A stretch of 64,000 bases of DNA from an uncultured Holophaga sp. Its GTDB lineage: Bacteria > Acidobacteriota > Holophagae > Holophagales > Holophagaceae. Location of the stretch: contig OY761614.1 in the NCBI GenBank assembly GCA_963664825.1, positions 512,001 to 576,000 on the forward strand, read 5' to 3'. How positions within the stretch are numbered: the stretch's first letter is position 1; each line of letters begins with the position of its first letter. Below, piece by piece: positions 6,144 through 62,212 of this stretch. The translations under genes were made by a program, and so were the position numbers. The notes beneath the pieces were generated by a model. That model was not told the DNA's origin. It made no database searches and was given only the letters and a program-made list of their open reading frames with translations.

Positions 6144-6221
6144 CTAGCGTAGGGCCGCCTTCAGGGCCGCGCTGCGATCGGTCTTCTCCCAGCTGAACTC
6201 GGCGCGGCCGAAGTGACCATA
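6144..6221 (-). repeat. Diverged second copy of the metK 3' end (25 codons + stop)
   Basis: 61/78 nt and 22/25 aa identical to 6328-6405; both copies followed by GACGC. Confidence 0.95.
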
Positions 6222-6327
6222 GGGCGGGACCCGCTCTGCGAGGGCCATGGCCCGAGCAGGAGGACGCGCCCAAAGGCGCGTCCGATCGCGGGGTAGCAAG
6301 CCCGCGCGCTCAAGCGGCGTAGGCGTC

Positions 6328-7470
6328 CTACCTCACTGCGGCCTTCAGCGCCGCGATCTTGTCCGTCTTCTCCCAACTGAACTCGGCGCGGCCAAAGTGG
6401 CCGTAGGACGCCGTGGACTGGTAGATGGGACGCCTCAGATCCAGGGCCTCGATCATGGCCTTGGGCGTGCAGCTGAAGACCTCCCGCACGGCCTTCACGA
6501 TGGCCTCGTCGGCCACATGGTTGGTGCCGAAGGTGTCTACGCTCACAGATACCGGTTCGGCCACGCCAATGGCGTAGGCCAGTTGCAGCTCGCACTTGTC
6601 GGCCAGACCGGCGGCCACGATATTCTTGGCAATGTAGCGCCCCATATAGGCCGCGGAGCGATCCACCTTGCTGGGATCCTTGCCGCTGAAGGCGCCGCCT
6701 CCGTGGTGGCCCGCGCCGCCATAGGTATCGACGATGATCTTGCGGCCCGTGAGTCCGCAGTCTCCCATAGGCCCCCCAATGACGAAGCGGCCCGTGGGGT
6801 TGATGTAGATCTTGGTCTTGGCGTCCAGCAGGTTCTCAGGCAGCGCGTAGCGGATGACCAGTTTCTCGATCTCCGCATGGAGGGTGGCATTGGTGATGGC
6901 ATCGTCATGCTGAGTGCTCACCACCACCGCATCGATGCGCTTGACCTTGTCGCCATCGTATTCCACGGTCACCTGGGACTTGCCGTCCGGGCGCAGCCAG
7001 GGCAGCAAACCATCCTTGCGGACCTCCGCGAGGCGCCGGGTGAGGCTATGGGCGTATTCGATGGCCGCAGGCATCAGCTCCGGAGTCTCCCGGGTGGCGT
7101 ACCCGAACATCAGGCCCTGGTCCCCGGCTCCTCCCGTGTCCACCCCCATGGCGATATCGGGACTCTGCTGATCCAGGGCCACCACCACACCGCAGGTCTG
7201 GCAGTCGAAACCCTTGGCGCTATGGTCGTAGCCGATGCCCCGGACCACCTCGCGCACGAGTTGGGCCACGGGAATGTAGGTCTGGGTGGTGATCTCGCCG
7301 GCTACCACTACCAGCCCGGTGGTGATGAGAGTCTCACAGGCCACTCGGCTCATGGCGTCATCGCCCAAGGCCGCATCCAGCACCGCATCGCTGATCTGAT
7401 CGGCCATCTTGTCGGGATGGCCTTCTGTGACGCTCTCGGAGGTGAACAGATGCCTGCCGGTCTTCGCCAT
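6328..7470 (-). CDS. metK: S-adenosylmethionine synthetase
   Basis: [44 protein letters not shown] before ATG at 7470. Confidence 0.98.
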
Positions 7471-7622
7471 ACTTTTCTCCTTTACGTCTCCATTGACCTT
7501 GGATGCTCGGACGCCGGAGGCGGTACAGCATATCAGGGCGAGGCATTTCTCCCCCCGGGCAGCCCTGGTATGGTAGGGAAACCTCAACCGTCGACATCCG
7601 ACCCTTTCCAACGGAGCGTCCC

Positions 7623-8765
7623 ATGACCCTGAACCGCTTTACCCGACATCTGATCGGCGCTTTGGCCGTCGCCATGCTTGTCCTGGCCCCAGCCTGCGGC
7701 AAGAAGGGCCCCGAGGAGCCCAAGGAGTTCAAGGACATCACCCAGAAGGTCGGGGAGATGGACAAGCTGAGCCAGAAGCAGAACGCGGTTGGCCAGGAGC
7801 AGGCCCAGAAGCTCAAGGAGGCCGGTGTCACCGACATCAAGCCCGGCGAGACCATGCAGCTCACAGAGGAGCAGAAGAAGGCCCTGGAAGACCGCATCAA
7901 GGCCGAGAAAAACAGCTCCTACCAGGCCCTCCTCCAGGAAGTCCTAGACAAGGACAAGGAGATCAAGGACCTCAACGAGAAGATCACCAAGCTCCGCGCC
8001 CAGCTCCCCAAGCCCGATATGGCCAAGGAGGGCGATAGCCACTACGCCATGGCCCTGCACTTCCTGCGTAAGAAGGGCGTGAAGGAGACCGAGGCCAAGC
8101 GCCTCATCAGCCGCGTCAACATCATGGAGAAACTGGCCAAGGGCTTCGAGGTCTACCACTTCTATAGCAACGGCGTCTACGGCACCTGGGTCAGCCAGGG
8201 CAGGGCCAAGATCAGCCCCAACGATCTGATCCGGGAAGAGCGCGAAAAGGTCGAGGGCGAACGCGACACCGCCATGGCCCATGGCGAAGTGCTCCAGGAT
8301 GAAGTGAACGATCTGCTTTCCCAGAAGGCCAAGATCACCTCCGAGATCGAGGGCCTCCGCAGCGAAAAGGCCAAGCTCATCAACGATATGAACGCCCTCT
8401 CCGCCACCAACGAGCAGCAGAAGTCCAAGCTCAATAGCCTCCACTACGTGGTCGGCGACCGCAAGCAGTTGGAGAAGAGCGGCGTGATCATCGTCCCCGT
8501 CTTCGCCAAGGACCGCGCCGGCAAGAACTGGAAGGACGATGTCTTCAACAAATCCCTGGACCTCCGCTCCAACGACACCATCACCATCCATGCCAGCGAG
8601 ATCGGCCTCAAGCAGATCGGCAAGGTGAGCGTGGTGCCCGGCTCCTATGTCAAGGACGAGCACTACAAGGTGACGATCAGCCCCGATAAGGCCTCCGCCA
8701 CCGTCAAGCTCATCACCAAGGAGCGCTTCAAGAACGACAAGGTCGTCTTCGCCGTCACCGACTAA
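7623..8765 (+). CDS. Lipoprotein with coiled-coil segments, unknown function
   Basis: Signal peptide with lipobox LAPAC; K/E-rich heptad stretches; strongly biased native codon usage. Confidence 0.75.
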
Positions 8766-8772
8766 TGCTGTA

Positions 8773-8815
8773 AAGGAGGGACCGCCTGCTCACTGCGTTC
8801 GCGACGTCCCCCCTT
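8773..8815. repeat. REP-like palindrome, copy 1
   Basis: AAGGAGGGACCGCCTGCTCACTGCGTTCGCGACGTCCCCCCTT, closely similar to 51930-51972. Confidence 0.75.
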
Positions 8816-8850
8816 CACGTCCGCTCCGCCCATCGAGGGACCGCCTGATG

Positions 8851-8877
8851 GAAAGCCCCCGATTCCGGGGGCTTTTC
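8851..8877. terminator. Bidirectional intrinsic terminator
   Basis: GAAAGCCCCCG-ATTC-CGGGGGCTTTTC between convergent genes. Confidence 0.8.
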
Positions 8878-8900
8878 GTTGGAAGGGGCGGCTCCCTGCT

Positions 8901-9317
8901 TCAGTTCACAATCTTGATGCGCCTGGGTGCAGGCGGGCGAGGGGTGTCCTTGCCCACCAGGATGCGCTCCAGGAGGCCCGCGACCACGCTGGTCACCAGG
9001 GCGCCGAAGAAACCCGCCCAGAAGCTATCCACACGGAAGCCCAGGCCCAGTTTGGTGGAGAGATTGCCCACCAGCCAGAAAACCAGGCCATTGATCACCA
9101 TGCTGAAGCAGCCCAGGGAACACGCCACGGGAATGAAGGCGATGAACTTCAGGAGAACCCCCAGGGTCGCGTTCAGGACACCCAGGAGCACGGCCACCAC
9201 GATCAGTTCCAGGAAGCTGCCCCTGTGGAGCCCGCTCACCAGGGCCGAAGCGATCAGGAGGCCGATGGCCGAGAAGAGGAAACGGAGGATCGTGCGCAGA
9301 TTACCCATGCGTTCCAT
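8901..9317 (-). CDS. Phage holin family (YvlD/DUF360-like) membrane protein
   Basis: Four hydrophobic helices; LLGVLNA, SLGCFSMVINGLVFWL, GFRVDSFWAGFFGAL; start uncertain (9308 or 9317). Confidence 0.8.
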   Translation of the reverse strand: MERMGNLRTILRFLFSAIGLLIASALVSGLHRGSFLELIVVAVLLGVLNATLGVLLKFIAFIPVACSLGCFSMVINGLVFWLVGNLSTKLGLGFRVDSFWAGFFGALVTSVVAGLLERILVGKDTPRPPAPRRIKIVN

Positions 9318-9435
9318 GATCGCGGAAAACAACTCCAGGGGAAATCCGTTGTACGAACCCTGGGCGCGGGCCCCAAGAGCATTTCCAAATCGGCCCAAGC
9401 CGCCTATCCTCAATAGGACTTAGGGGCCACCCTCG

Positions 9436-15152: not shown

Positions 15153-16007
15153 TCAGGTCTTGTTCGGCGTTTTCCGCACCCAGGGCGCCAGGGACTTATC
15201 AAAGAAGGCCTGAAGCCCCGCATGGGCCTCGCCCCCCCCTCGGACCTCGGCGATGGCGCGAGCGTTGGCTTCCACCCGCTGGGCATCCGGCAGGGGCATG
15301 TCCCGCATCAGCTGGGCCTTGGTGCGCCGGGCGGCCTCGGGCCCGGCCTGGAGCCACTCCAGCAGTTGCGCCGCGAGCGCCGTTTCCAGGGATTCCCCGG
15401 GCTGCGTCAGGTGCTGGACCAGACCGCAGGCCATGGCCTCTTCCCCGTCGAAGCGCCGTCCCGAGAGCAGGAGAGGAGCCGCCCGGCCCAGCCCCAGCTT
15501 GCGCACCACGTAGGGGCTGATCAGCGCCGGGACAAGGCCCAGGCGCACTTCGGAAATCGCAAAGCGCGCCGAGGCTTCAGCCAACACCAGATCGGCGCAA
15601 GCCGCCAGACCAAATCCGCCTCCCAGGGCCGCCCCCTGCACTGCGCAGATCACCGGCGCCGGGAAGGCCGCCAGGCGATGGAACATGGCCCCCAGCTGGC
15701 GGGCATCGGCCAGATTCTCCTCCGGGGTATGGGCGGCCTGGGCCTGCATGTAGCCGAGATCGGCCCCAGCGCAGAAGATGCTCCCCTCCCCCACCAGCAG
15801 AAGCACGCGCAGGGCCTGGGGATCGAGCACCGATAGATCGAAGAGGGCACTGGAGAGTTCGGCGATCATGGTGGTATCGAAGGCGTTGTGCCGCTCGGGC
15901 CGGGCCAGCACTAGGCGCGCCACACCGTGTTCCAGCTGCTCGACCCGAAGGCGCTCCCCCCGGAAGAGGAGGCCCTGGTAGGAAAACCCTGGGATGGAGG
16001 CCGTCAT
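15153..16007 (-). CDS. Enoyl-CoA hydratase/isomerase (methylglutaconyl-CoA hydratase-like)
   Basis: RPERHNAFD, FCAGADL, GAALGGGFGL, SEVRLGLVP; RBS GGAGG before ATG 16007. Confidence 0.9.
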   Translation of the reverse strand: MTASIPGFSYQGLLFRGERLRVEQLEHGVARLVLARPERHNAFDTTMIAELSSALFDLSVLDPQALRVLLLVGEGSIFCAGADLGYMQAQAAHTPEENLADARQLGAMFHRLAAFPAPVICAVQGAALGGGFGLAACADLVLAEASARFAISEVRLGLVPALISPYVVRKLGLGRAAPLLLSGRRFDGEEAMACGLVQHLTQPGESLETALAAQLLEWLQAGPEAARRTKAQLMRDMPLPDAQRVEANARAIAEVRGGGEAHAGLQAFFDKSLAPWVRKTPNKT

Positions 16008-16092: not shown

Positions 16093-16148
16093 CTCGGGCG
16101 CGCAGGCGCCGGACAAAAGCGAACTCCAGAAATGGAAGGTGCCTTCAT
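16093..16148. repeat. GCA-loop hairpin plus degenerate upstream copy of the enoyl-CoA hydratase 5' end
   Basis: Plus-strand CTCGGGCGC-GCA-GGCGCCGGA; minus-strand MKAPSISGVRF aligns with real start MTA-SIPGFSY, in frame. Confidence 0.5.
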
Positions 16149-28010: not shown

Positions 28011-28877
28011 ATGTTTTTTATCATCGGGATCATCGTCGTCATCGGATCCGTGCTCTCGGGATACCTGATGGAGCACGGCAAGATCGCGACGCTCCTGGAG
28101 CCGCTGGTGCCCGAAGGCATCATTCTCTTGGGAGCCGCCCTCGGTTCCTTCCTGGCCGCCAATCCCCCCGCCGTCATCAAGGCCGTGGCCGCCAGCATCA
28201 TGAAGCCCCTGAAGGGCAGCAAATACACCAAGCCCGTGTATATGGAAGCGTTGATGATGCAGTACGAGGTCTACGTCAACATCAAGAAGGGGGGCCTCCT
28301 GGCCCTGGAACAGGATGTCAACGACCCCCACAGTTCCAATATCTTCAAGAAATACCATTCCATGCTCCAGGATCATCACGCCCTGGACTTCTTCTGCGAT
28401 TCCATGAAGCTACTCATCAACGGCAGCGCCAAGATCGACGAGATCGACCAGGTCATGGAGATGGACCTGGATGTGCACCACGCCGAGAGCGCCATTCCGG
28501 GCACCTCCGTGAACACGGTCGCGGATAGCCTGCCGGCCTTCGGTATCTGCGCCTGCGTCATGGGCATCGTCGTCACCATGGGCTTCCTGGATCAGCCCCC
28601 CAATATCATCGGCGCCCACGTGGCCTCGGCCCTGGTGGGCACCTTCCTGGGCATCTTCCTGGGCTACGGCATCTTCGCGCCCCTGGCCAAGAACATCGAC
28701 CAGGTGAACGCCACGGAATCCCACTTCTTCAGCATGCTCCGGGCGGGCCTGGTCTCCTTCGGCAATGGCGCCGCCCCCGTGACGGCGGTGGAATTCGCCC
28801 GACGCAATATCCCCTTCTCCGAGCGCCCTGGGTCCCAGGAGCTGGAGGAAGTGGTGCGTCAGATCAAGCCGAGGTGA
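28011..28877 (+). CDS. motA: Flagellar motor stator protein MotA
   Basis: KKGGLLALE, LPAFGI, ALVGTFLGI, AVEFARR. Confidence 0.95.
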   Translation: MFFIIGIIVVIGSVLSGYLMEHGKIATLLEPLVPEGIILLGAALGSFLAANPPAVIKAVAASIMKPLKGSKYTKPVYMEALMMQYEVYVNIKKGGLLALEQDVNDPHSSNIFKKYHSMLQDHHALDFFCDSMKLLINGSAKIDEIDQVMEMDLDVHHAESAIPGTSVNTVADSLPAFGICACVMGIVVTMGFLDQPPNIIGAHVASALVGTFLGIFLGYGIFAPLAKNIDQVNATESHFFSMLRAGLVSFGNGAAPVTAVEFARRNIPFSERPGSQELEEVVRQIKPR

Positions 28878-28881
28878 CGGG

Positions 28882-28980
28882 ATGCCCACAATGAAGCCGG
28901 ACCAAGCCCCTTCCTCGCACCTCGAAATCGCCGCAGGCGATTGTCGAGTGGAAGTGGTGCGCCAGATCAAGCCCAGGTAG
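28882..28980 (+). repeat. Hairpin-containing spacer plus second copy of motA 3' end, forming a 32-aa mini-ORF
   Basis: 28951-28980 is 26/30 nt identical to 28848-28877 (EVVRQIKPR* in both); ATG at 28882 in frame. Confidence 0.9.
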
Positions 28981-30231: not shown

Positions 30232-33200
30232 ATGTCCCCTGCGCTCGATTCCTTCTTCCAGACCTGGCGAGGCTCCGCCGGAAACGAGCGGGCCAACTTC
30301 CAGTCCTTCATCCGCGAGTTCTGCGAGGTCCTCGACCTGCCCGTGCCTGAGCCCAAGGGGCCAGGGGCCACCTATTGTTTCGAGAAAGACCTGAAGCTCA
30401 CCCACCTGGATGGCAGCATCAGCACGGGCTCCATTGACCTCTATCGGGCAGGCTGTTTTGTCCTCGAAGCCAAGCAGGGAAGCACTCGGGAAGCGCCCAG
30501 TTCTTCGGCGGTGCGGGGCACCCGTGGGCACGACCGCTACATGGAGGCCGCCTTCGGGCAGGCCGTGAATTACGCCCGCAACCTGCCGGGAGGGCGCCCG
30601 CCCTTCGTCATAACCTGCGACGTTGGCTACGCCTTTCATGTGTGGGAGGGCTTTTCGGGCACCTATGGCGGCTATGGTGCTAGGCGCACCTTCAGCCTGG
30701 AAGATCTGGCGAAGCCCGACGTTCAGGAATATTTTCGGGCACTCTGGCTGGATCCTCAGAGCCAGGATCCGGCTCGGAAGCGCACCGCCGTCACCCGTGA
30801 TGTGGCTCGAGCCCTGGGCGAACTCGCCGCCAGCCTGGAAGGGCGCTTTCCGAGTGAGGCCGTGGCGCGCTTCCTCATGCGGGTGGTCTTCACCTTCTTC
30901 GCCGAGGATGTGGGACTCCTGCCGGAAAAGCTCTTCGAGAGCGCCCTGAAGGGGCCCTGGAAGGATCATCCCGAGGCCTTCCCCAAGGGGCTGGAGGCCC
31001 TGTGGGACGCCATGAACACGGGCGGCATGTGGGGCCCTCTGAAGGTCCTTCGCTTTAATGGCGGCCTCTTCCAGGAGAGCCTCGCCCTGACCCTCAATGC
31101 CGCCGAGATCGCCCAGCTCGGCGCCGCCGCGGCCTTCGATTGGTCCGAGGTGGATCCCAGCATCTTCGGCACCCTCCTGGAGAGCGCCCTGGATCCTTCC
31201 GAGCGCCATCGCCTGGGGGCCCACTACACGCCCCGCGCCTATGTGGAGCGCCTCCTGCGCCCCGCCCTGGAGGAGCCCCTGCGGAAGGATTGGGAGCTGG
31301 CCCAGGCGGAAGCCATGGCGGTCCTCGGGGACGAGCCCAAGGAGGCGGACAAGGCGAAGGCCCGGGATGTGCTGCACGCCTTCCAGCGCCATCTGGCCCA
31401 GGTCAGCGTCCTGGATCCGGCCTGTGGAAGCGGGAACTTCCTGGCGGCCTCCTACGACATCCTCAAGCGCATGGAGGGGGAGATACAGCGGCGCCTGGTG
31501 GATCTAGGAGAGACGGGCCGCGCCCTGGCCCTGGAGGGCGTGCTGGTGACACCCGCCCAGTTCCAGGGCCTGGAGGTGAAGCCCTGGGCCGCGGCCATCG
31601 CCGATCTCGTGCTCTGGATCAGCCATCTCCAGTGGTTCCACCGTCAGCACCCCGGCCAGCCCGCGCCCGAGCCTGTGCTCCAGGCCTATGGCAACATCCA
31701 TCGCCAGGACGCCGTCCTCACCTGGAAGGGCACCCGCGAAACGGGCCGCAGCCGCTGGGACGGCCACACCTTCAAGACGCACCCCGTCACGGGCAAGCCG
31801 GTGCCCGATGAGACGGCCCAGACGCCGATCCTCGAATACCTGGAGCCAAAGCCCGCAAAGTGGCCCGAGGCGGATTTCATCGTGGGCAATCCGCCCTTCC
31901 TGGGGAACAAACGGATGCGGGACGCCCTTGGCGACGGCTACTCAGAGGCCCTGCGGAAGACCTATCCCGACGTGCCCGATAGCGTGGACTTCGTCCTCTA
32001 CTGGTGGCACAAGGCGGCGGAAGCCGTGCGCAGCGGACGCACGCGACGCTTTGGCCTCATCACCACCAATAGCCTGACCCAGACATTCAACCGGCGCGTC
32101 ATCGCCCACCATTGCGGCGCGAAGAAACAGCCCCTCAAGCTCCTCTGGGCCATCCCCGATCATCCCTGGGCCGACGAGGGGGCCGCCGTTCGCATCGCCA
32201 TGACCGTGGGCGGGCGCGAGGGCAAGCCTTGGCTGGGGCACGTGGTGGAGGAGCGCAGCGCGGACACACCTGAGGCCGAAGCGGAGGCCGTGAGGGTGGA
32301 AGGGCACGGCGTGGAGGTCATCCACGAGGACCTGAGTGCGGGCGTGAACGTAACTTCCGCACTTCCCCTTCTCGCCAACGGCGGCTTGTCCAGTCGGGGC
32401 ATGATCCCTTACGGCGAAGGCTACTTGGTCTCCTCGGAGCAGGCCGCCGCATGGAAGCAGCCGCAGATCTTGAAGCCTTACTGCAATGGGAAAGACCTTA
32501 CCGACAAACCACGCGGGGCATGGATTATCGACTTCTTCGGCATGACGGAGAAGGAAGCCAGGGATGCTGCTCCTGCCGCCTTTCAGCACCTCTATGAGAC
32601 CGTCAGAATCCAGCGGGCGAGTGCGGGGACGAAGGGGGTTGCGGACAATTGGTGGGCCTTCTGGCGGCCACGTTCGGAACTGCGTTTGGCGTTGAGGGAG
32701 GTTCGGCGTTACATCGTCACTCCGCAGGTGGCCAAACATCGTGTCTTCCAATTCCTCGCCGGCGACGTTGTTCCCGACGACAAACTCATCGCCATCGCTC
32801 TGGATGACGCGTGGTCCCTTGGCATCCTGGAATCCGGGGTTCACAAGGCTTGGGCCACTGCCAACCGAGGAAACATGGGCGTTGGCAACGATCCCGTCTA
32901 CAACAAGACCTCCTGCTTTGACGCGTTCCCCTTCCCGGAAACCAGCGAGGCGCAGAAGGCGGCCATCCGCGATCTCGCCGAGCGTCTGGACGCTCACCGC
33001 AAGGCGGCCCAGGGCCGGGGCGTGACGATTACGCAGATGTACAACCTCCTCCAGAAGCTCCGCGCCGGGGAGGCCTTCACGCCCAAGGAACGCGATCAGC
33101 ACGGCGCGGCCCAGACGGAGATCCTGCGCCAGCTTCACGACGAACTGGATGCCGCCGTTCTGGAAGCCTACGACTGGCCCGCCGGGATGGAGGACGCCGA

Positions 33201-33615: not shown

Positions 33616-33641
33616 ACCGCGATTCATTCTGAAGGATCATC

Positions 33642-34604: not shown

Positions 34605-34616
34605 AAGTGGCCGAGG

Positions 34617-34910: not shown

Positions 34911-34978
34911 CGCCAGGAGGCACCGACCATGCCTCCCTTTAATACCGATTCGCATTCAATAATCGAGAATGTAGTCGG

Positions 34979-35096
34979 GCGTTCGAAGTCGCTCCGCATC
35001 GCAGCCTCGGCCCTCGTCGCACCCCCTTCGGGGGCAGGCCGGTCTGCGCTGCTGCGCTTGACGCGCTCTGCTTCGCAGATCGCTAGCTTCGAACGC
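34979..35096. repeat. Branched palindromic (REP/MITE-like) element
   Basis: Terminal IR GCGTTCGAAG...CTTCGAACGC enclosing CCCC-TTC-GGGG and CTGC-TTC-GCAG hairpins. Confidence 0.6.
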
Positions 35097-35201
35097 ACCC
35101 TGATATAAGCGCTGTAGGACACCGATAGCACAATAGTTTGATAAATATCGTATCAACACAGCATCCATGGAATACCCTGGTGGAGTTCCCCTTCCATCGG
35201 A

Positions 35202-38200
35202 ATGTCCATGCTAGAAACAGCGCCTACTCAAAAATCCATCGAGCTAGTCCATGACCCAGTGATCTGTTGGGCAGCAGAACACTGTGGAATCCCGTTGATC
35301 CGTTCTTGCCGAATCACCAACGTCACCGGAACCCTTCTGGTCGAAGCCATAGCCCACATCCAACTTCTGCCGGACCTGGGAGAGGCGCTATTGGTCCCCC
35401 TGCCCCAATTGGCGGCAGGAGAAACCTTCGACCTCGGGCGAATTGATTACCGCCTGCCACCGGGAAGCCTTCGCCAAGTGGTGGAGCTGGAACGAGCCGA
35501 GTTCCAGATCCGGATCATGAAGGGTAGTGAGACGATTGCGGATTATCGCTCACCCGTTGAGGTGCTTCCATGCCACCAGTGGCCGGGGATGCGCATGCCG
35601 ACGGGCTTGCTCACATCCTTCATCACCCCCAACCAGCCTGTTGTCTCGCAGATTCTCAAACGCACTTCGGATCGACTCCGCCAGGTTGAAGGTAGTGCCG
35701 CCATTCTTGGCTATCAGGCGAAAAATCCCAACTCGGTACGCGCCCAGGTAGTGGCCCTAATCCAGACCCTCCAGTCCCTGGGACTGAGCTACATAGGCAT
35801 CCCAGCGAGCTTTGAACGGAGCGGTCAAAAGGTTCGTTTCCCTGACATGATCCTGCGCGATCAGATGGCCAACTGCCTCGATATGACGCTGCTGGCGGCA
35901 GCTTGCCTGGAGCAGATGGAGCTGCGCCCCCTCGTAATCTTCATCGAAGGGCATGCTTTCCCCGGTGTATGGCTGGTGGAGGACCGTTTCCCCGAGGGGG
36001 TGGTTGAAGACGCGGCACGACTTCGCAACCTCATGGCCCTCGACCAGATTCTCGTCTGGGATTCAAGTGCCACCATGGAGCAACCACCGGCATCCTTCGC
36101 CCAAATTCAAGCCTTGGCTGAGAAAAACCTGGCCACAGACGAGAAGTTTGGGTTTGCTCTCGATGTCCGGGTCATGCGATTGGAGCGATTCCTACCGCTC
36201 CCCTTGCGCGAGGCGTTTCAGGACCAGCAGCCTCCTGCACGATCAGCTGGAGAGGGAATGCCTGCGAGGGACGAGCTGAGGGAACTTCTCGCAGCAGTGG
36301 CCCGAGAGGGTGCGCGATGCGAGGAACCTGAAATTGCCGTCACGGCTCCCCAAATCGTTGGGCGCTGGCAGCGATGGAAGGATCGCCTGCTCGACCTTTC
36401 CTTGCGGAACCGCCTTCTTAATTTCAGGCCCGCCGGGGCCTCGGCTTTGCCACTCGAAGTTCCGGACGTTTCGAAATTTGAGGACCTCCTTGCGGACAAC
36501 AAGGTCTTTGAGCTACTCGCGAAACCTCCTCAGGACAGCCGAGACGAGCGAGATCTGAGACTGCTGGCCCAGCGCGAGGACACCGATGGCTGGAAGGCTC
36601 AGCGGATGGCCGACCTCAACGGACGTATCCTCCACAGCAGTCTCACACCAGGAGAATTCATCAAGCATGCCAAAGACTTGGAAACCCTCGCTCGCACCGA
36701 TCTGGAAGAGGGTGGAGTCTGCACGGTTTTCGTCGCAGTGGGCCTGCTCCGCTGGTTCGAACCCGGAGTTCTCAAGGAACGATTCGCTCCACTAATGCTT
36801 TACCCAGTGCAAATTCTCTTCAACAGACAGCTTCGTCGTGTGTGCCTCCAGCGACTTCCCGAGGATCCAATCCCGAATGTGACCCTCGTAGAGAAGATGC
36901 GCCGAGACTTCAACGTGGATCTGTCCTTCCTGGCCTCACTGGAATCGGACGATTCCGGCCTCGACATCCCTCAGATGCTCCACCGATGCCGGGAGGCCAT
37001 CCAGAGGATCCCGCGATGGGAAATCCTGGAGGACGCCCACCTCGGCCACTTCACCTTCGCCAAATTTCTCATGTGGAAGGACCTGGAGGACAATGCGGAG
37101 GTTCTTCTTAAGAACCCAGTCATTCGGCACCTTGCCACGGATGGCTCCGACGTAATGGCAACCCAGCCAGAAGCCGTTTCCGTCGAGACACTAGAAACCA
37201 TGCCCCCAGGCCAACTGCCTTGCGTGGTCGATGCGGACTCGACCCAGCTATCCGCGGTGGCCTCTGCGCTAGCAGGTCGGAGTTTTGTCCTGCAAGGCCC
37301 TCCGGGAACGGGGAAATCCCAGACCATCGCAAACATCATCGCCTGTGCCCTGGCCAATAACCGTTCCGTACTCTTCGTCTCAGAGAAAATGGCAGCCCTG
37401 GAGGTCGTTCATGCGCGACTTCGGCAGGCGGGCCTGGAGGACTTCTGTCTGGAACTCCACAGCCACAAAGCCCACCGGAAAGGTGTGCTCGAATCCCTAC
37501 AGAAGGTCCTGGAACGAGGGAGTCGGATCTCCCTTAAAGGTTGGGAAGCGCGTGAAACCGAGCTTCAACAACTCCGGGACGAATTGAATCATTACACCGA
37601 AGCACTGCATCGCCCCCGCACCATTGGCTTCAGTCTCTTCGAGGGCAGTTCCATCGCCTACAAGCTTCGCCACAGCGCGGGCTTGACCCTGCATCGGAAC
37701 GATCTTGGCACCCTGGATGGAGAGACCTATAGAAATCTCATGCAGGAAGTGGAAACCTTCGCCCATCGGGCCGAGGCTCTCGGAGTCTGGGCGAACTGCC
37801 CATGGTCAGGCACCGATCCTGGACCATGGAGCTACACAGCACAGGAAGCCGTGGAAGAGCATCTGCGAATCACCCGGCAGGCACTGGCATCCTTGCGCGA
37901 GACAATCCGATCCCTTGGGCAGGACGCAGGCATGGAGTTGCCCACTGCACCCGAGGCGCTTGATGCCTTGACGCTGGTTATCATCCAGTTGGACTCTCAT
38001 CCCATCCCCGAAACGGCTCTTGATCCCATCACCTGGGCTCCCCTTCGGGAAGATTTAGAAAATTATCAAACAGCCGTGAAGAGCCTGAATCATCGGCAAG
38101 ACGCCTTGGGTTCCCATTGGCTTCCTGCCCTGCTGGAGCAAGATCTCTCCCCACTCCAGGCCACCTACCAGCAACACGCGAACACCTTCCCGCTGGTCCG

Positions 38201-41111
38201 ATGGATCTTCCTCTGGGGAGCGGCGAGCCATCTCAAGCCTTTGTCGCGATCCGGGCTTCCCATGCCCCTAACCGTCCTCCGTGATCTCGAGGAGGCCCTG
38301 AGCATCCAGCAGAAGCGCCGACGCGTTCAGGAGATCGGATCTTCCTTGTTGCGAAAGCTGAGACCTGCTCCATGGGAGCGGTTGGACTCGATTCAGAACC
38401 AGGCGACAAGCATCCATAAGGCTTTGGGTTTGCTCCAAATCCACATGACACCAGAACCTGCCGCGGCCCTCCTCCACGTCCTCTGGCGTCTACCCGAGGA
38501 CCGGCGGCACGGCCATCGGGTGCGTTTGACCTCGAATTTAGAGGCCTTCCAGGCGCAGGAAGCCAAGCTCTTCAGCGTCCTCGGTTTGAAGTCCAATCAG
38601 GGTGAATGGAGATGGTCGGAAGCCTCCCATCTGGAACGGCTCGAAAATCGGTTGGATGTCTGGGAGGGAAGCCTCTCCGCCTTTAAGGCGTGGTGCTTCT
38701 ACCGGGAGACCGGGCGGAATCTGGAATCCATGGGCTTTTCGGGGGTGGTGGAGGCACACAGCTCAGGCACCCCTCCCAAGAACCTCCTGGACGCGACCGA
38801 ACGGGCTGTTCTCGAACGTTGGTGTGCGGCCATTCGAGACCAGGAACCTGCACTGCGTGGGTTTGAAGGCAGCCACCATCATCGAAAGATCACCCTATTC
38901 CGTGAACTTGACCAAAATTGGATTCAACTGAGTCGATCCTTTGTCACTCGCCAGCTTGAGGCCCGCCTCCCAATTCAGGGTGGAGGCGTATCCGAAAGTT
39001 CGGAGATGGGCATCCTCTTGAGAGAGATCAAGAAGAAGGCCCGCCATATGGCCATTCGAAGACTCCTTCAGGCCATTCCAACCCTGCTCTCCCGATTTAA
39101 ACCTTGCCTCTTGATGAGTCCCCTTTCCGTGGCTCAGTATCTGCCTGCAGAGGGGAAGCCCTTTGATCTCTTGGTATTTGACGAGGCCTCCCAGATCACA
39201 ACGCACGATGCTATCGGCGCACTGGCCCGAGGCAATCAGGTCATTGTGGTAGGTGACTCAAAACAGCTTCCACCCACGAGTTTCTTCGCACGCAACATGG
39301 ACGAAGAAGTCGCATTGGACGATAACGACGTCACCGAGTTGGAGAGCATTCTAGACGAGGCCACCGCCAAGCAGTTCCCCCAGCAACTCCTAGGCTGGCA
39401 TTACCGCAGCCGGCACCACGCTCTGATCGATTTCAGCAATCGGCACTACTACGACGGCCGTCTTAACGTCTTTCCTGCAGCAGCTCGAAAGGTCGACAAT
39501 CTCGGAATCGCCTGGCACCCAGTTCCAGATGGTGTGTATTTCAGCTCAGGCTGCGAACCCAGGAACTTCGAGCGCACAAACCCCGTCGAAGCGGAGCGCC
39601 TGGTGGACCACCTTGTCCAAACGCTCCGGAAAACCCCCGCTGAAACCCGGACTTTCGGGGTCGTCACCTTCTCCATGTCCCAGCAGCGTCTGATCCAGGA
39701 ACTCCTGGATGAACAGCGGGCTCGTTTCCCGGAAATCGAAACACACTTCCAGAGTGCAGAACCCGTCTTCATCAAGAACCTTGAGAATGTTCAAGGGGAT
39801 GAGCGAGATGAAATTCTCTTCAGTATTGGATATGCGAAGGATCAGAAGGGAAGGCTTCGCATGCACTTCGGCCCGTTGAGCGTCTCCGGTGGTGAGCGCC
39901 GCCTGAACGTAGCCATCACCCGGGCCAGGTGTCAGCTTAGGGTGTTCAGTACGCTCACTCACGACCAGATCGATCTGAGCCGAACGACCGCCCGAGGCGC
40001 CGAGCACCTGCGGGCCTTTCTCCAGTTTGCCGCCCAGCAGGGCTCTCCGGGGATCTCCGACCGACCTCCTGCAAGATTCGCGAGTTCTTTCGAGCAAGAG
40101 ATCGGGGCAGCGGTGGAGGCCATGGGCTTCGAAGTCCACACCCAAATCGGCTGCGGCGAATATCGCATCGATCTCGCGGTGGTAGACCCCAAGCAGGAGG
40201 GGCGCTTCATGCTTGGCATTGAATGCGATGGTCCGGCCTACCGGTCGGCACTGTCTGCAAGGGATCGGGACCGCCTCCGTCACCAAGTTTTGGAGGGACT
40301 GGGATGGCGGTTGCATCGCATCTGGTCCGCGGATTGGGTCGAAGCCCAGCCTAAAGAGATCCAACGACTGCGTGAAGCCCTGGATTCCGCCCGCCAACCG
40401 CTGCCAGCCCCGGTCATCCCTGCCTCTGTTCCTCTCCCAGCACTTTCCCCCGAATTTCCGCAGAAATCGGAAACCGTTGTCTACAATTCCGGTCAAACCC
40501 TCCAGAGGGTTTCTAAGAATGCACCCGTCTATTCAGCCACCCCCACCCTGCCCAGTGGAACGCCCTACCGGGAGGTCGTTCTCGCACCCCTGGACTCAGA
40601 GAGCCCAGAGGGTTTCTACTTGCCCGAAAGCCAGTTCATCACGCGATCTTGTGTCCTGGAGATCCTAGCAACCGAATCGCCCCTTCACAGGGATGATCTT
40701 GATGGGAAGGTCGTACGGAGCTGGGGGTGGTCCGCCCTTACGAAGCGCGGGAGGAGTCAGATGGACCTGATCCTGGCTTGGATGACCTCGATGAAGGAGC
40801 TCAGGTGCCAGGGTGACGTTGTCTGGGGGTACGAACAGGATTCCGCCGCGTTTAAGGGGTTCCGGACACCTGGCCCCTCGGGTCCCCGAGAGGCCGACCG
40901 GATTCCCCCCGAAGAAATAGCCAATGCCATGGCCGTAATCATCCAGGCCAATATCGCCCTGGAGGAAGAACCCCTTCTCAAGGAAACTGCCAGACTGCTT
41001 GGCTACCGTCGGGTCACCAGCAAGACCACCGATGCCCTCAGATCAGGCCTTCCCCTCCTGCTCCGGCAAGGTTCCTTTCTTAGAGATGGGGTCATCATCA
41101 AGCAAGCCTGA
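35202..41111 (+). CDS. DUF4011 / SF1 helicase / Vsr-like nuclease / DUF3320 multidomain protein (Hhe-like anti-phage)
   Basis: WKDRLLDLSLRNRLLNF, QGPPGTGKSQT, FDEASQ, GDSKQLPP, ENVQGDERD, RRLNVAITRAR, RIDLAV...GIECDG, RDRDRLR; codon usage unlike flanks. Confidence 0.88.
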   Translation: MSMLETAPTQKSIELVHDPVICWAAEHCGIPLIRSCRITNVTGTLLVEAIAHIQLLPDLGEALLVPLPQLAAGETFDLGRIDYRLPPGSLRQVVELERAEFQIRIMKGSETIADYRSPVEVLPCHQWPGMRMPTGLLTSFITPNQPVVSQILKRTSDRLRQVEGSAAILGYQAKNPNSVRAQVVALIQTLQSLGLSYIGIPASFERSGQKVRFPDMILRDQMANCLDMTLLAAACLEQMELRPLVIFIEGHAFPGVWLVEDRFPEGVVEDAARLRNLMALDQILVWDSSATMEQPPASFAQIQALAEKNLATDEKFGFALDVRVMRLERFLPLPLREAFQDQQPPARSAGEGMPARDELRELLAAVAREGARCEEPEIAVTAPQIVGRWQRWKDRLLDLSLRNRLLNFRPAGASALPLEVPDVSKFEDLLADNKVFELLAKPPQDSRDERDLRLLAQREDTDGWKAQRMADLNGRILHSSLTPGEFIKHAKDLETLARTDLEEGGVCTVFVAVGLLRWFEPGVLKERFAPLMLYPVQILFNRQLRRVCLQRLPEDPIPNVTLVEKMRRDFNVDLSFLASLESDDSGLDIPQMLHRCREAIQRIPRWEILEDAHLGHFTFAKFLMWKDLEDNAEVLLKNPVIRHLATDGSDVMATQPEAVSVETLETMPPGQLPCVVDADSTQLSAVASALAGRSFVLQGPPGTGKSQTIANIIACALANNRSVLFVSEKMAALEVVHARLRQAGLEDFCLELHSHKAHRKGVLESLQKVLERGSRISLKGWEARETELQQLRDELNHYTEALHRPRTIGFSLFEGSSIAYKLRHSAGLTLHRNDLGTLDGETYRNLMQEVETFAHRAEALGVWANCPWSGTDPGPWSYTAQEAVEEHLRITRQALASLRETIRSLGQDAGMELPTAPEALDALTLVIIQLDSHPIPETALDPITWAPLREDLENYQTAVKSLNHRQDALGSHWLPALLEQDLSPLQATYQQHANTFPLVRWIFLWGAASHLKPLSRSGLPMPLTVLRDLEEALSIQQKRRRVQEIGSSLLRKLRPAPWERLDSIQNQATSIHKALGLLQIHMTPEPAAALLHVLWRLPEDRRHGHRVRLTSNLEAFQAQEAKLFSVLGLKSNQGEWRWSEASHLERLENRLDVWEGSLSAFKAWCFYRETGRNLESMGFSGVVEAHSSGTPPKNLLDATERAVLERWCAAIRDQEPALRGFEGSHHHRKITLFRELDQNWIQLSRSFVTRQLEARLPIQGGGVSESSEMGILLREIKKKARHMAIRRLLQAIPTLLSRFKPCLLMSPLSVAQYLPAEGKPFDLLVFDEASQITTHDAIGALARGNQVIVVGDSKQLPPTSFFARNMDEEVALDDNDVTELESILDEATAKQFPQQLLGWHYRSRHHALIDFSNRHYYDGRLNVFPAAARKVDNLGIAWHPVPDGVYFSSGCEPRNFERTNPVEAERLVDHLVQTLRKTPAETRTFGVVTFSMSQQRLIQELLDEQRARFPEIETHFQSAEPVFIKNLENVQGDERDEILFSIGYAKDQKGRLRMHFGPLSVSGGERRLNVAITRARCQLRVFSTLTHDQIDLSRTTARGAEHLRAFLQFAAQQGSPGISDRPPARFASSFEQEIGAAVEAMGFEVHTQIGCGEYRIDLAVVDPKQEGRFMLGIECDGPAYRSALSARDRDRLRHQVLEGLGWRLHRIWSADWVEAQPKEIQRLREALDSARQPLPAPVIPASVPLPALSPEFPQKSETVVYNSGQTLQRVSKNAPVYSATPTLPSGTPYREVVLAPLDSESPEGFYLPESQFITRSCVLEILATESPLHRDDLDGKVVRSWGWSALTKRGRSQMDLILAWMTSMKELRCQGDVVWGYEQDSAAFKGFRTPGPSGPREADRIPPEEIANAMAVIIQANIALEEEPLLKETARLLGYRRVTSKTTDALRSGLPLLLRQGSFLRDGVIIKQA

Positions 41112-42069: not shown

Positions 42070-43140
42070 TTACAATAGATCCTTGCGGCCCATCTGCTGG
42101 AGCCGCTGGACGATATCCTTCACGCCCTGGGCCTTGTCCCGGTGGCAGATAAGGAGCGCGTCCTCCTCGTCGACCACGATGAGGTCCTTCAGGCCCGAGC
42201 CTCCGATCATGCGGCGGCCGCCGAAGATGGCGCAGTTCGTGGAATCCACCAGCACCGCATCCCCCAGCACCACGTTGCCGTTCTCGTCGGCCTCGTGGAA
42301 TTCCACCACCGCAGGCCAGGAGCCCACGTCCGACCAGCCGAAGCTGGCGGGCACCACCGCCACGTGGTGGGACTTTTCCATCAGCGCGTAGTCGATGGAG
42401 AGCTTGGGCAGCTGGGCGTAGGCCTCGCCGATCGTCTGGGGATCGGCCCCGGCGGCCACCCAAGCATCCAGAGGCGCCAGCACCTCCGGGCAATGGGCCT
42501 GGAGTTCCCGGCGCATATCCGCCAGGGTCCACACGAACATCCCCGCATTCCAGAAGTGGCGCCCCGTCTGGACGTATTCCAGGGCGGTGGCCAGGGGCGG
42601 CTTCTCCCGAAAGGCCTTCACGGCCAGGACCGGGCCCTGGCCTTGGGTCTCGATGTAGCCGTAGCCGGTCTCGGGGTAGGCGGGCCGGATGCCGAAGGTG
42701 ACCAGTTCGTGCTGGTCCCAGGCATGGCGGGCAGCCACCTCGATATCCCGGTGGAAGGCCGGATTGTCGGTGATCCAGTGATCCGCCGAGAGCACCACCA
42801 TCACGCCCTTGGGGTGGCGCGCCTCGATGACGGTCAGGGCCAAGGCCAAGCAGGGTGCCGTGTTGCGACCCTCGGGTTCGATGATGACATTCTCCGCGGG
42901 CAGCTCGGGCAGGAGCCGCCGAGTTTCCGCCGCCAGGTCCTCAGTGGTCACCACGAAGACATTGGCGGGCGCGAAATCCGGGAAGAGCCGCGATACGGTT
43001 TGGTTCAGGAGGGTGGAATCGCCCACCATGGCCAGGAACTGCTTGGGCCGATGGGTCCGAGAGCGCGGCCAGAACCGCGTCCCCCGCCCGCCCGCCATAA
43101 CGACGGCTATTTTTTCGATACCACCAACCGTATTCGACAT
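42070..43140 (-). CDS. manC: Mannose-1-phosphate guanylyltransferase
   Basis: MAGGRGTRFWPRSR...PKQF, EPEGRNTAP, ETGYGYI, SIDYALMEK, WSDVGSW. Confidence 0.95.
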   Translation of the reverse strand: MSNTVGGIEKIAVVMAGGRGTRFWPRSRTHRPKQFLAMVGDSTLLNQTVSRLFPDFAPANVFVVTTEDLAAETRRLLPELPAENVIIEPEGRNTAPCLALALTVIEARHPKGVMVVLSADHWITDNPAFHRDIEVAARHAWDQHELVTFGIRPAYPETGYGYIETQGQGPVLAVKAFREKPPLATALEYVQTGRHFWNAGMFVWTLADMRRELQAHCPEVLAPLDAWVAAGADPQTIGEAYAQLPKLSIDYALMEKSHHVAVVPASFGWSDVGSWPAVVEFHEADENGNVVLGDAVLVDSTNCAIFGGRRMIGGSGLKDLIVVDEEDALLICHRDKAQGVKDIVQRLQQMGRKDLL

Positions 43141-43158
43141 CCTTGTCCTTTCAACCCG

Positions 43159-43245
43159 TTAACGTGCGCGAAGTCTCGGCAGCGCCGCAGGCGATACCGA
43201 AATAACGACAGCTGCTTTTTCGATACCATCAATCGTATTCGACAT
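43159..43245 (-). repeat. Upstream diverged copy of manC 5' end plus hairpin, forming a 28-aa uORF
   Basis: 43202-43245 is 39/44 nt identical to 43097-43140; own AGGAG RBS; MSNTIDGIEKAAVVISVSPAALPRLRAR*. Confidence 0.9.
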
Positions 43246-59498: not shown

Positions 59499-59691
59499 GC
59501 ACGGCTCCGGGAGCTTGTTTTCGCCTCATCATACAGCCCCTGAGAGGAGCCTGGGACCCGGGGAATGGAATCTTGCCTCGGAAAAGTTGCCGTACGCTGG
59601 TAAAATCATCGGTTCGGCCCGCCCTTCCTCCTGAACCGGAGGCTCGGGTCCCCTTGAGCCCAGGCCCCAAGCCTCTTGCCCCGAGTCCCCC

Positions 59692-61518: not shown

Positions 61519-61529
61519 TCGCACAGAGG

Positions 61530-61554
61530 TCTTCGCATCCGCAGGATGCGAAGA
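61530..61554 (+). repeat. GCA-triloop hairpin of the same family as the terminus-duplication hairpins
   Basis: TCTTCGCATCC-GCA-GGATGCGAAGA, 11-bp perfect stem. Confidence 0.6.
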
Positions 61555-61563
61555 GGAACGCGC

Positions 61564-61600
61564 AAAGGCCCCATGGATCCTCAGGATCCATGGGGCCTTT
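61564..61600. terminator. Bidirectional terminator-like hairpin
   Basis: AAAGGCCCCATGGATCC-TCA-GGATCCATGGGGCCTTT. Confidence 0.8.
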
Positions 61601-61614
61601 AGATTAATAGGCCT

Positions 61615-61756
61615 GATCCAGGCGGCTTGCAAACTACTCAGGTGCCGGGGAGATCGCCCAGGGTCCCTGTCTTCCCCAGGCTGGAGCCCATGGCCGGAGC
61701 CGGAGCCAGGCTCCTGATCGTCGGGGCGATTCGCGGCGAAGCCACCCACGGACTTT
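61615..61756. ncRNA. Candidate rod-shaped structured RNA (possibly 6S-like)
   Basis: Nested minus-strand pairings GGTGGCTT/AAGCCGCC, GCCG/CGGC, ATCGCCC/GGGCGAT, GGAGCCT/GGGCTCC; lies between two terminators. Confidence 0.35.
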
Positions 61757-61794
61757 GCGGGTTCCCTTGGAGGACAACGCGAGACGTACAACAC

Positions 61795-61819
61795 AAAAGG
61801 CCCAGACAAACCGGGCCTT
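61795..61819 (-). terminator. rpsT intrinsic terminator
   Basis: Minus strand AAGGCCCGG...CTGGGCCTTTT. Confidence 0.7.
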
Positions 61820-61839
61820 CGTGAGTCTCGATTGGGTTT

Positions 61840-61892
61840 GCTTAGGCCAGAGCGTTCACCTTCTCGACATCCCCTCCGGGGATATACGAGAC
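61840..61892 (-). repeat. GGA-loop hairpin plus second copy of rpsT 3' end
   Basis: 61840-61862 is 22/23 nt identical to 61947-61969 (KVNALA* plus GC); preceded on minus strand by GTCTCGTATATCCCC-GGA-GGGGATGTCGA. Confidence 0.9.
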
Positions 61893-61948
61893 TCCACAGA
61901 CAAAGAGCCCAGCTCAAGGCTAGGCTCCCGGTGGTAGCTGCGACCCGC

Positions 61949-62212
61949 TTACGCCAGAGCGTTCACCTTGAGGGTGAGGCGGGACTTGGCGCGATTGGCG
62001 ACGTTCTTGTGGATGACGCCCTTTCGCACGGCCTTGTCCACGACGCCCAGGGTGGCGGGGAGCAGGGCAGCGGCCTCGGCCTTCTTGCCCGTCGCAACGG
62101 CGCTCAGGAAGATCTTGAGGGTGCTCTTCATGGCCGACCTGTTTGCGCGATTGCGCAGACGGGCCTCGACGTCATGATGGGCTTTTTTCAATGCAGACTT
62201 GTGGTTGGCCAT
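61949..62212 (-). CDS. rpsT: 30S ribosomal protein S20
   Basis: MANHKSALK, DKAVRKGVIHKNVANRAKSRL. Confidence 0.97.
   Translation of the reverse strand: MANHKSALKKAHHDVEARLRNRANRSAMKSTLKIFLSAVATGKKAEAAALLPATLGVVDKAVRKGVIHKNVANRAKSRLTLKVNALA

What the first reader, a model, noticed from the sequence alone, without database searches (positions are those of the whole stretch)
6144..61969. Recurrent 'gene terminus - spacer - GNA hairpin - echo of the same terminus' module at unrelated genes: candidate undescribed element or mechanism
Seen: metK (3' end, 78 nt), motA (3' end, 30 nt), rpsT (3' end, 23 nt), manC (5' end, 44 nt) and, degenerately, the enoyl-CoA hydratase gene (5' end) each have a second diverged copy of their terminus ~60-110 nt away. 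In every case a related hairpin sits directly before the echo copy. motA: CTCGAAATCGCC-GCA-GGCGATTGTCGA. rpsT: CTCGTATATCCCC-GGA-GGGGATGTCGA. manC: CTCGGCAGCGCC-GCA-GGCGATACCGA. Enoyl-CoA hydratase: CTCGGGCGC-GCA-GGCGCCGGA. metK (least similar): CTCGGG...CCCTC-GCA-GAGCGGGTCCCG. The polarity is constant (functional terminus, spacer, hairpin, echo, read pointing away from the gene body), so the module is gene-sense at 3' ends and antisense at 5' ends. The rest of each spacer is unrelated. At the 3' ends differences are mostly synonymous, and the echo often has the host-preferred C-ending codon, suggesting the echo is the old terminus. Established: ordinary IS target duplications are a few bp and start identical; integrative elements can restore gene ends but are site-specific and carry integrases; HUH/RAYT enzymes recognise short DNA hairpins. 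Inference: a non-autonomous hairpin-dependent element that inserts into gene termini while duplicating or re-supplying them, or a system that renews gene ends. No enzyme for it is visible in this window.
Basis: partly seen in the sequence, partly recalled or inferred. Interest (0 to 1): 0.9.

Follow-up and report, generated by a model that had tools for sequence, protein, structure and literature searches.

The report
Hairpin micro-element that recopies gene ends
A 30-letter DNA hairpin found throughout one family of soil and sediment bacteria sits in a roughly 104-letter unit that gives a housekeeping gene a fresh copy of its start or end and pushes the old end aside; it looks like an undescribed, enzyme-less mobile element whose helper enzyme is still unknown.

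Summary
Real, and larger than reported. The motA, manC and rpsT modules belong to one hairpin family (bulged 13-bp stem, GNA loop) found at 16 loci of this genome, all at gene termini, and in 92 of 121 family genomes (Holophagaceae), but in 0 of 280 other Acidobacteriota. metK has an echo but a different end motif; the enoyl-CoA hydratase case is too decayed to call. The unit is [gene terminus + spacer + hairpin], period 102-108 nt in 121 of 148 echo sites. It starts at a fixed A-N-R|R-N-G site, forms arrays of up to five units, and is missing from empty alleles whose context matches the echo, so the echo marks the old terminus. Spacers supply a terminator, a ribosome-binding site or a bridging ORF that reaches the old stop (11 of 11 motA/nuoJ modules). 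A 42-nt form inserts without duplication, some copies in frame in genes. No enzyme was found: RAYT, IS200, IS91, RT, GxxExxY and integron tests failed or showed no link. Best reading: a non-autonomous single-strand hairpin element inserted with a ruler-measured ~74-nt target duplication and kept by duplication-deletion cycles. The scan's earlier notes hold nothing similar.

The parts
28011..28877 (+). motA, target gene (3' end renewed)
   Evidence: TIGR03818 over cut-off
28846..28877 (+). functional motA terminus, from the A(+1) junction to the new stop
28878..28920 (+). motA spacer, homologous to spacers of 6 other genomes
28921..28948 (+). family-A hairpin (diverged copy), GCA loop
28950..28980 (+). 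echo = old motA terminus, followed by the native motB start at 28990
28882..28980 (+). 32-codon bridging ORF through spacer, hairpin and echo, ending at the old stop
   Evidence: in 7 of 7 motA modules
42070..43140 (-). manC-like mannose-1-phosphate guanylyltransferase, target gene (5' end renewed)
   Evidence: TIGR01479 best hit, below cut-off
43097..43140 (+). functional manC 5' terminus (antisense view), from the A(+1) junction
43141..43173 (+). manC spacer (new upstream region)
43174..43201 (+). family-A hairpin, GCA loop
43202..43245 (+). echo = old manC 5' terminus; period 105
   Evidence: bridged with 0 differences by contigs of X1, X3, X4
61949..62212 (-). rpsT (S20), target gene (3' end renewed)
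   Evidence: TIGR00029 over cut-off
61949..61969 (-). functional rpsT terminus
61892..61948 (-). rpsT spacer with a terminator-like hairpin of the type found in G004, G006, G007, G008
61863..61891 (-). family-A hairpin, GGA loop
61842..61862 (-). echo of the rpsT terminus; period 107
61778..61841 (-). older spacer with its own terminator (G001/G002 type) and a 5' half-hairpin remnant: a decayed earlier unit
6328..7470 (-). metK, target of a second (family-B) echo module
   Evidence: TIGR01034
6328..6407 (-). functional metK terminus
6225..6327 (-). family-B insert, with a REP-like stem-rich spacer and a distinct end motif at 6225-6256; not the GNA family
6144..6223 (-). echo of the metK terminus; period 184
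16093..16148 (+). decayed hairpin (16093-16113) and weak echo beside the enoyl-CoA hydratase start (gene 15153-16007, minus strand); inconclusive

Best explanation
A non-autonomous micro-element: a ~30-nt hairpin with a bulged 13-bp stem and a C-GNA-G loop, read as single-stranded DNA by an unidentified enzyme acting in trans. It enters the chromosome in two ways: as a 42-nt unit without duplication, or with a ruler-measured duplication of about 74 nt of the target. The duplication starts at an A-N-R|R-N-G site and ends at the hairpin foot. Only events whose duplicated stretch contains a gene terminus, with the hairpin landing outside the gene, leave the gene intact, and so they accumulate at gene ends. 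The non-coding part of the new copy then drifts into a spacer that keeps what expression needs (terminator, ribosome-binding site, bridging ORF). Repeated duplication of the unit and deletion between the repeats make arrays and keep the hairpin-side part of the echo matched to the gene. Shown: anatomy, junction, period, empty alleles, arrays, covariation, homogenisation gradient. Inferred: single-strand chemistry, the ruler as an enzyme property, selection at termini, the enzyme.
For: Structure, not only sequence, is kept: with the inner 9 nt left free, 276 of 286 bulged copies pair all three inner base pairs in four interchangeable forms (shuffles: mean 77, max 100), and 276 of 286 have a GNA loop. 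Fixed junction: A at +1 in 83 and G at +6 in 81 of 84 gene-attached copies; identity between the copies is 0.45 and 0.71 at +2/+3 and 0.99 at +4 (rows are redundant by locus). By target group, A in 27 and G in 26 of 28. Ruler: period 102-108 in 121 of 148 echo sites and in 20 of 28 target groups. The motif occurs every ~71 nt by chance, and a closer copy is skipped in 44 of 81 first units. At the MoxR gene the duplicate covers the gene end to within 2-3 nt of the hairpin; G002 has five units and G005 none. Empty alleles: motA filled in 7 of 30 loci, including an empty genome of the same genus; precise empty sites for 45 of 159 echo-less copies; insert 42 nt in 102 of 107. Birth and death: unit number at manC differs across the genus; at polA own-copy identity is 0.94 next to the junction against 0.73 at the far end. 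Bridging ORF in 7 of 7 motA and 4 of 4 nuoJ modules.
Against: No enzyme found. No unambiguous fresh event (whole 74-nt duplicate followed by hairpin-free native DNA) among 102 last units: perfect duplicates are followed by another or a partial hairpin, and only rpsT (L008) and MoxR come close. A plain symmetric duplication does not explain why the hairpin-side echo is kept while the spacer decays; the duplication-deletion cycle must be added. Echo units have a purine foot (G-A-R-G), the 42-nt form a different 10-nt leader, so the two forms may not share one reaction. No leading/lagging bias in this genome (10 of 16 by my count, a set that includes the two doubtful window cases), which single-strand transposons often show (recalled). 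Other periods exist (67, 155, 170, 175, 215, 228).
Confidence: 0.5

Rival explanations
1. Circle-and-homology model (ISCR-like). The hairpin first lands just beyond a gene end. An enzyme peels out a ~104-nt single-strand circle from a cryptic upstream A-N-R|R-N-G site to the hairpin. The circle, or a concatemer, is rescued into a naive allele by homologous recombination inside the terminus, also between strains.
For: It gives the same anatomy and explains directly why the homology lies on the echo side, why +2/+3 after the hairpin are not the host codon, and the polA gradient. At rpsT this genome's first spacer resembles G004/G006/G007/G008 and its second resembles G001/G002. Arrays mix alleles.
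Against: Echo units lack the 10-nt leader of the 42-nt form that a captured founder should carry. Spacer identity still tracks gene-body identity (Spearman 0.47 at polA). Recombination through 17-45 nt of homology is inefficient (recalled). It needs two steps at each of more than 20 loci.
Confidence: 0.25
2. The modules are scars of larger integrative elements (phage, ICE, island) that carried a replacement gene end and later lost their cargo.
For: Re-supply of the terminus with terminator or ribosome-binding site is what integrative elements do (recalled). One target, yicC, is a known island site (recalled). The genome has 14 tyrosine-recombinase matches.
Against: No cargo-bearing copy among 311 hairpin sites with up to 8 kb of flank; the distant matches were weak (15-16 of 20) or array and MITE copies. 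No true hit in viral contigs. More than 20 unrelated targets share one hairpin and one length. The 42-nt form inserts precisely by itself.
Confidence: 0.08
3. A domesticated host system that renews or diversifies protein termini and their expression signals, with arrays as a store of alternative ends.
For: The same core genes are hit across genera (polA, rpsT, manC, uppS, cydB). Array units encode different N-terminal peptides. At polA the new start carries a stronger ribosome-binding site than the old one. Translational coupling appears to be kept.
Against: Patchy presence, empty alleles in close relatives, decayed and truncated units; insertions into MITEs and a transposase gene. Differences between copies look like drift under purifying selection (117 synonymous, 84 non-synonymous codons, automated frames).
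Confidence: 0.1
4. No dedicated enzyme: the stable hairpin stalls replication, and slippage or template switching makes the duplications.
For: No candidate enzyme tracks the hairpin. At least three other repeat families in this genome also carry echoes.
Against: Slippage does not move a hairpin to new sites with a precise 42-nt insertion, keep an asymmetric bulge (250 C, 36 T), or fix both junction motif and length.
Confidence: 0.07

Closest known systems
Insertion with long target duplication (restriction-modification genes; Furuta et al. 2010, PMC2853133, passages and sections 15 and 18 read)
   Same: Long direct repeats made from the target, often spanning a start or stop codon so that the gene stays intact; the repeats allow amplification.
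   Different: There the insert is a multi-kb RM gene set and the repeat length is variable. Here the insert is a 30-nt hairpin without a gene, with a fixed junction motif and a length near 74 nt at many loci.
REP/BIME/REPIN with TnpA-REP (RAYT) (PMC8266576, PMC3116915, PMC3733652; passages read)
   Same: Short extragenic hairpin with a required bulge, non-autonomous, cleavage near and at discrete distance from the hairpin, tandem clusters that include flanking DNA. It works most like this.
   Different: No constant GTAG or CGTC tag, no doublets, no RAYT in 121 genomes; about 20 copies rather than hundreds; duplication of gene termini is not reported in the passages read.
IS1634/IS1549 (PMC2266710, passages read)
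   Same: Long target duplications on insertion.
   Different: DDE transposons with terminal inverted repeats and a transposase; duplications of 8-514 bp that vary by copy.
IS91/ISCR rolling-circle elements (recalled)
   Same: One-ended capture of neighbouring DNA and rescue by homology would give a duplication beside the element.
   Different: No transposase in the unit; no such hairpin in the IS91-type loci scanned; no co-occurrence.
Integron attC sites (bioRxiv 10.1101/2022.09.11.507474, passages read)
   Same: Strand-specific folded site with an extrahelical base; arrays of units.
   Different: No AAC/GTT core, target is not GWT; this genome's own attC sites are unrelated.
DGR target hairpins (recalled)
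   Same: GNA-loop DNA hairpin between a gene's 3' end and a homologous copy.
   Different: No adenine-specific change, no RT in this genome, and it also occurs antisense at 5' ends.
Geobacter multicopy sequences (PMC2700814, PMC2996986, passages read) and Rickettsia palindromic elements (recalled)
   Same: Palindromic repeats inserted between genes and in frame within genes, like the 42-nt form.
   Different: No terminal duplication described in the passages read; their supplementary alignments were not opened.

Membership tests
REP/REPIN-RAYT | constant GTAG (or CGTC) tag at the hairpin foot | tested here: not met
   foot is G-A-R-G in echo units, T-W-Y-G in the 42-nt form; only the last G is constant
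REP/REPIN-RAYT | RAYT gene in the lineage, flanked by the repeat | tested here: not met
   0 of 121 genomes over the NF047646 cut-off; PF01797 in 20 of 121, no hairpin in its 30 loci
REP/REPIN-RAYT | inverted doublet as replicative unit | tested here: not met
   copies are single or head-to-tail
REP/REPIN-RAYT | bulged stem recognised as single strand | tested here: inconclusive
   bulge and pairing conserved; binding cannot be tested here
IS200/IS605 and PATE-type derivatives | hairpins at both ends, no target duplication, Y1 transposase | tested here: not met
   one hairpin, long duplication; Y1 not associated, Fisher p=1.0, kin not independent
IS91/ISCR | Y2 transposase with the element's end beside it | tested here: not met
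   PF04986 in 42 of 121 genomes, p=0.82; no hairpin in the 79 Y1/Y2/RT loci scanned
Integron cassette/attC | RYYYAAC...GTTRRRY core, crossover at G|TT or GWT | tested here: not met
   junction is A-N-R|R-N-G; resident attC sites differ
DGR | adenine-specific substitutions | tested here: not met
   rates 0.085-0.112 for all four bases in 73 modules
DGR/retron/group II intron | reverse transcriptase linked to the element | tested here: not met
   none found in G000; 31 of 121 genomes, p=0.23
IS1634/IS1549-type long-DR IS | DDE transposase and terminal inverted repeats; variable duplication length | tested here: not met
   no transposase as a recurrent neighbour among 165 proteins scanned; narrow period
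Integrative element (phage/ICE/island) | integrase and cargo between att repeats | tested here: not met
   no cargo-bearing copy in 311 sites; no hairpin in 8 of 14 integrase loci scanned
CRISPR array | repeat with unrelated spacers beside cas genes | tested here: not met
   units copy the adjacent gene end; the type I-E array of G000 has another repeat
Known structured RNA | Rfam match at gathering score | tested here: not met
   0 matches in the window
Insertion with long target duplication (phenomenon) | repeat over 30 bp matching a single empty site | tested here: met
   motA and MoxR filled and empty alleles
Insertion with long target duplication (phenomenon) | insert encodes a restriction-modification system | tested here: not met
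   insert is 30-42 nt, no gene

The most novel reading that the evidence does not exclude
A new class of DNA recombination: an unknown enzyme reads a 30-nt single-strand hairpin and copies a measured ~74 nt of chromosome beside it, scarlessly rewriting the starts and ends of essential genes. Several unrelated repeat families of these genomes exploit the same route, and arrays act as a store of alternative gene termini.
Probability: 0.35. Interest if true: 0.92.

Novelty: new variant of a known kind. Interest (0 to 1): 0.8.

Why it matters
No mechanism is known for long target duplications (PMC2266710 says so for IS1634/IS1549; PMC2853133 offers only a hypothesis). Here they come with a fixed junction, a fixed length and a 30-nt cis signal, at more than 20 loci in a family with cultured strains, which makes the question testable. 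The element also shows how a parasite can sit in operons of essential genes without harm, by re-supplying termini and bridging translation. It quietly swaps the first or last 5-40 codons and the expression signals of core genes. An enzyme that inserts a tag while regenerating the gene end would be of interest for genome editing.

Tried and rejected
Loose motif search: not enriched. Enzyme hunts, all without a link: PF01797, NF047646 (77), RT (15, 90), Y2 (47, 89), IS110 (46, one copy), Cas1 (48, ordinary type I-E), serine resolvase and Rep_trans (86, 87, none found in G000), relaxase (88, two, no hairpin nearby), GIY-YIG (31), tyrosine recombinases (14; 8 of 14 loci scanned). GxxExxY nuclease: in 98 of 121 genomes, but not found in the five g7 genomes of which four carry the hairpin; no hairpin in 30 loci and no flanking target duplication in 29. 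Neighbour proteins: 67 of 87 and 98 of 132 cluster representatives scanned with Pfam (short fragments and repeats left out); one transposase, as a target. Viral contigs: 0 hits, then 4 chance hits with unpaired stems. Half-site search for a gene-bearing version in G000: no candidate in the part of the output shown, the middle was cut. Two profile hits inside genes without echo (G000 1999993, 2425764) were dropped from the census. Sequencing runs: no RNA holder listed; only contigs could be laid, so rare pop-outs were not visible. Literature: ten searches found no description of this element; most subscription papers are outside the library, and supplements of the Geobacter and REP surveys were not opened. 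Earlier scan notes: nothing relevant.


Full report
Observation. The window is G000:C1:512001-576000 of a single-contig 3.47-Mb genome. The loose motif is not enriched (105 against 97 expected), but a genome-wide search for close repeats preceded by a GNA hairpin showed one tight family. Its consensus is TCTCG-(C/T bulge)-GYATC-SSC-GNA-GSS-GATRCCGAG-A. A profile built from 15 copies scores 16 sites at 32 or more; a 2-Mb Markov control peaks at 19. With loop variants found later I count 20 hairpins at 16 loci. All lie just outside a gene terminus and point away from the gene body; three have weak echoes, and two further profile hits inside genes were dropped. metK has a real echo but another end motif. 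The enoyl-CoA hydratase site is too decayed to call. Contigs from three runs of two studies bridge the manC module without a difference.

Distribution. An exact pattern is in 92 of 121 family genomes with 0 for the reversed control, in 19 of 20 family genomes and 0 of 280 others of the phylum. Viral contigs give no true copy. Rfam has no match in the window.

The hairpin is kept as a structure. With the inner nine bases left free, 276 of 286 bulged copies pair all three inner positions, in four interchangeable forms (shuffled mean 77, max 100), and 276 of 286 have a GNA loop closed by C-G. That loop is exceptionally stable in DNA rather than RNA (recalled), and bulge and loop make the site strand-specific. 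I infer recognition as single-stranded DNA. I see no replication-strand bias in G000 (10 of 16 by hand).

The echo unit. Among 311 hairpin sites, 148 have an echo within 240 nt, and 121 of these have a period of 102-108. Targets include polA, rpsT, manC, uppS, cydB, nuoJ, purE, ABC permeases and others. The gene-attached copy begins A-N-R|R-N-G (A in 83, G in 81 of 84; 27 and 26 of 28 target groups); the two copies differ at +2 and +3 and agree at 99% from +4. This motif recurs every ~71 nt by chance, and 44 of 81 first units skip a closer copy (these 81 were chosen for period 100-110, so their 73-79 nt distance is by construction). Length therefore looks set by a ruler. At the MoxR gene the duplicate reaches to within 2-3 nt of the hairpin; G002 has five units and G005 none. 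At motA 7 of 30 loci are filled, and empty alleles end in the context of the echo. At rpsT 9 of 14 loci shown carry the hairpin. So the echo marks the old terminus. Arrays are [terminus-spacer-hairpin]n followed by the old terminus and native downstream DNA. Unit number and encoded N-terminal peptide differ among close relatives at manC. At polA a genome's two copies match each other near the junction (0.94 against 0.86 across genomes) but fall into separate new and old classes at the far end (0.73 own; 0.84 and 0.81 within class). At motA own identity is 0.93 against 0.80. This is what repeated duplication and deletion between the repeats would give. Substitutions are not base-specific (0.085-0.112), and the C-ending bias is not general (42 against 36).

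The spacer makes the insertion transparent. At rpsT it carries a terminator-like stem and at 5' ends often a ribosome-binding site. Inside operons an ATG within 5 nt of the new stop opens a stop-free frame through spacer, hairpin and echo to the old stop: 7 of 7 motA and 4 of 4 nuoJ modules from relatives and G000, and G000's own nuoJ. I infer that this preserves translational coupling; it was not measured.

A second, smaller form. Many of the 159 echo-less copies are a 42-nt unit (102 of 107 typed copies) with a 10-nt leader, inserted at C-AAG-R sites in MITE ends, in GxxExxY-type repeats, and in frame in genes (5 of 93 sites with flanks). Precise empty sites were found for 45 of 159. The empty triplet equals the right-hand triplet in 15, both in 10, neither in 20 and the left-hand alone in none; many of these rows are copies of a few MITE families. 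So the hairpin moves by itself and does not need gene termini. The junction has a variable 2-nt window on each side.

Other families. Thirty of 4991 termini in G000 have an echo against 4 in the control; ten belong to this family, and the rest include a related period-97/98 type, the metK type and GxxExxY-type repeats. The echo route is thus wider than one hairpin.

Enzyme. None found. RAYT: 0 of 121 over cut-off. Y1, Y2 and RT occur in 20, 42 and 31 of 121 genomes without association (Fisher p 1.0, 0.82, 0.23; kin are not independent), and no hairpin lies in the enzyme loci scanned. GxxExxY is common but unlinked. G000 has an integron, but its attC sites are unrelated, and the junction is neither AAC/GTT nor GWT. 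No mobility gene recurs among 165 neighbour proteins. No cargo-bearing copy was seen.

Mechanism. I favour insertion with a ruler-measured target duplication plus duplication-deletion cycling (0.5) over circle capture with homologous rescue (0.25), host domestication (0.1), scars of larger elements (0.08) and enzyme-free slippage (0.07). Against my reading: no clean fresh duplication among 102 last units, different feet in the two forms, and signs of foreign spacers at rpsT.

Comparison. The nearest phenomenon is insertion with long target duplication of restriction-modification genes, where repeats often span start or stop codons (PMC2853133). The nearest chemistry is TnpA-REP on bulged single-strand REPs (PMC8266576, passages), with tandem REPIN clusters (PMC3116915, passages). 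IS1634/IS1549 make long but variable repeats (PMC2266710, passages). GTAG/CGTC surveys and Geobacter repeat catalogues do not describe this unit in the passages read (supplements not opened). It fails membership in each family but works like a REP-type non-autonomous element. ISCR, DGR and Rickettsia-element comparisons are recalled, not read. Ten literature searches found no description, within a library that lacks most subscription journals.

Verdict. Real, family-wide, apparently undescribed, with sharp and testable rules but no enzyme yet. New variant of a known kind (non-autonomous palindromic element; long target duplication), possibly a new mechanism (0.35). Interest 0.8.

Noticed in passing
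window 30232-41111: Defence-type island between motB and manC: a 1127-aa protein with weak methyltransferase matches and an anti-phage ProA helicase over cut-off; GC drops to 0.58.
   Followed up: no
G000:C1:2531900-2539900: Chromosomal integron: integrase-like gene plus a cassette array with ~123-nt attC sites, ending at an IS110 copy.
   Followed up: partly
window 6144-6407 and G000 391767, 1321598, 1958685, 2840049, 2955233: Second echo family (B) with stem-rich REP-like inserts and periods 133-208; metK belongs here.
   Followed up: partly
G000 1887505 and 3324141-3324329: Third echo family with another hairpin, period 97-98, but the same A-N-R|R-N-G junction.
   Followed up: partly
G000 near 949075, 2111686, 295683: GxxExxY-type short-repeat MITEs flanked by 28-76-nt copies of gene termini (periods 274, 221, 199), although 29 gene-bearing GxxExxY loci show no such repeats.
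   Followed up: partly
L279, L325, L374, L167, L200, L286: 42-nt hairpin unit inserted in frame in coding regions, adding 14 residues; one sits in a DDE transposase gene.
   Followed up: partly
G000:C1:829900-832900: IS91-type transposase (split over two ORFs by my gene caller) with an upstream tyrosine recombinase, next to a GxxExxY gene; IS91-type genes are in 42 of 121 family genomes.
   Followed up: partly
G000:C1:462000-470400: Type I-E CRISPR-Cas locus with an array.
   Followed up: no
G000:C1:2942497-2942800: Close direct repeat of 141 nt, period 163, over what looks like a tRNA 3' part, preceded by a small hairpin.
   Followed up: no
L557 (G000:C1:1219697-1220009) and L559: Four-unit array at a ThiF-family gene start and five-unit array at a MoxR gene end: best places to look for copy-number change in reads.
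   Followed up: partly
L068:2011: rpsT gene one codon longer than its relatives, with hairpin-end letters at the junction: probably the scar of a unit lost by microhomology.
   Followed up: no
L315: 42-nt unit directly after what looks like a tRNA 3' end.
   Followed up: no
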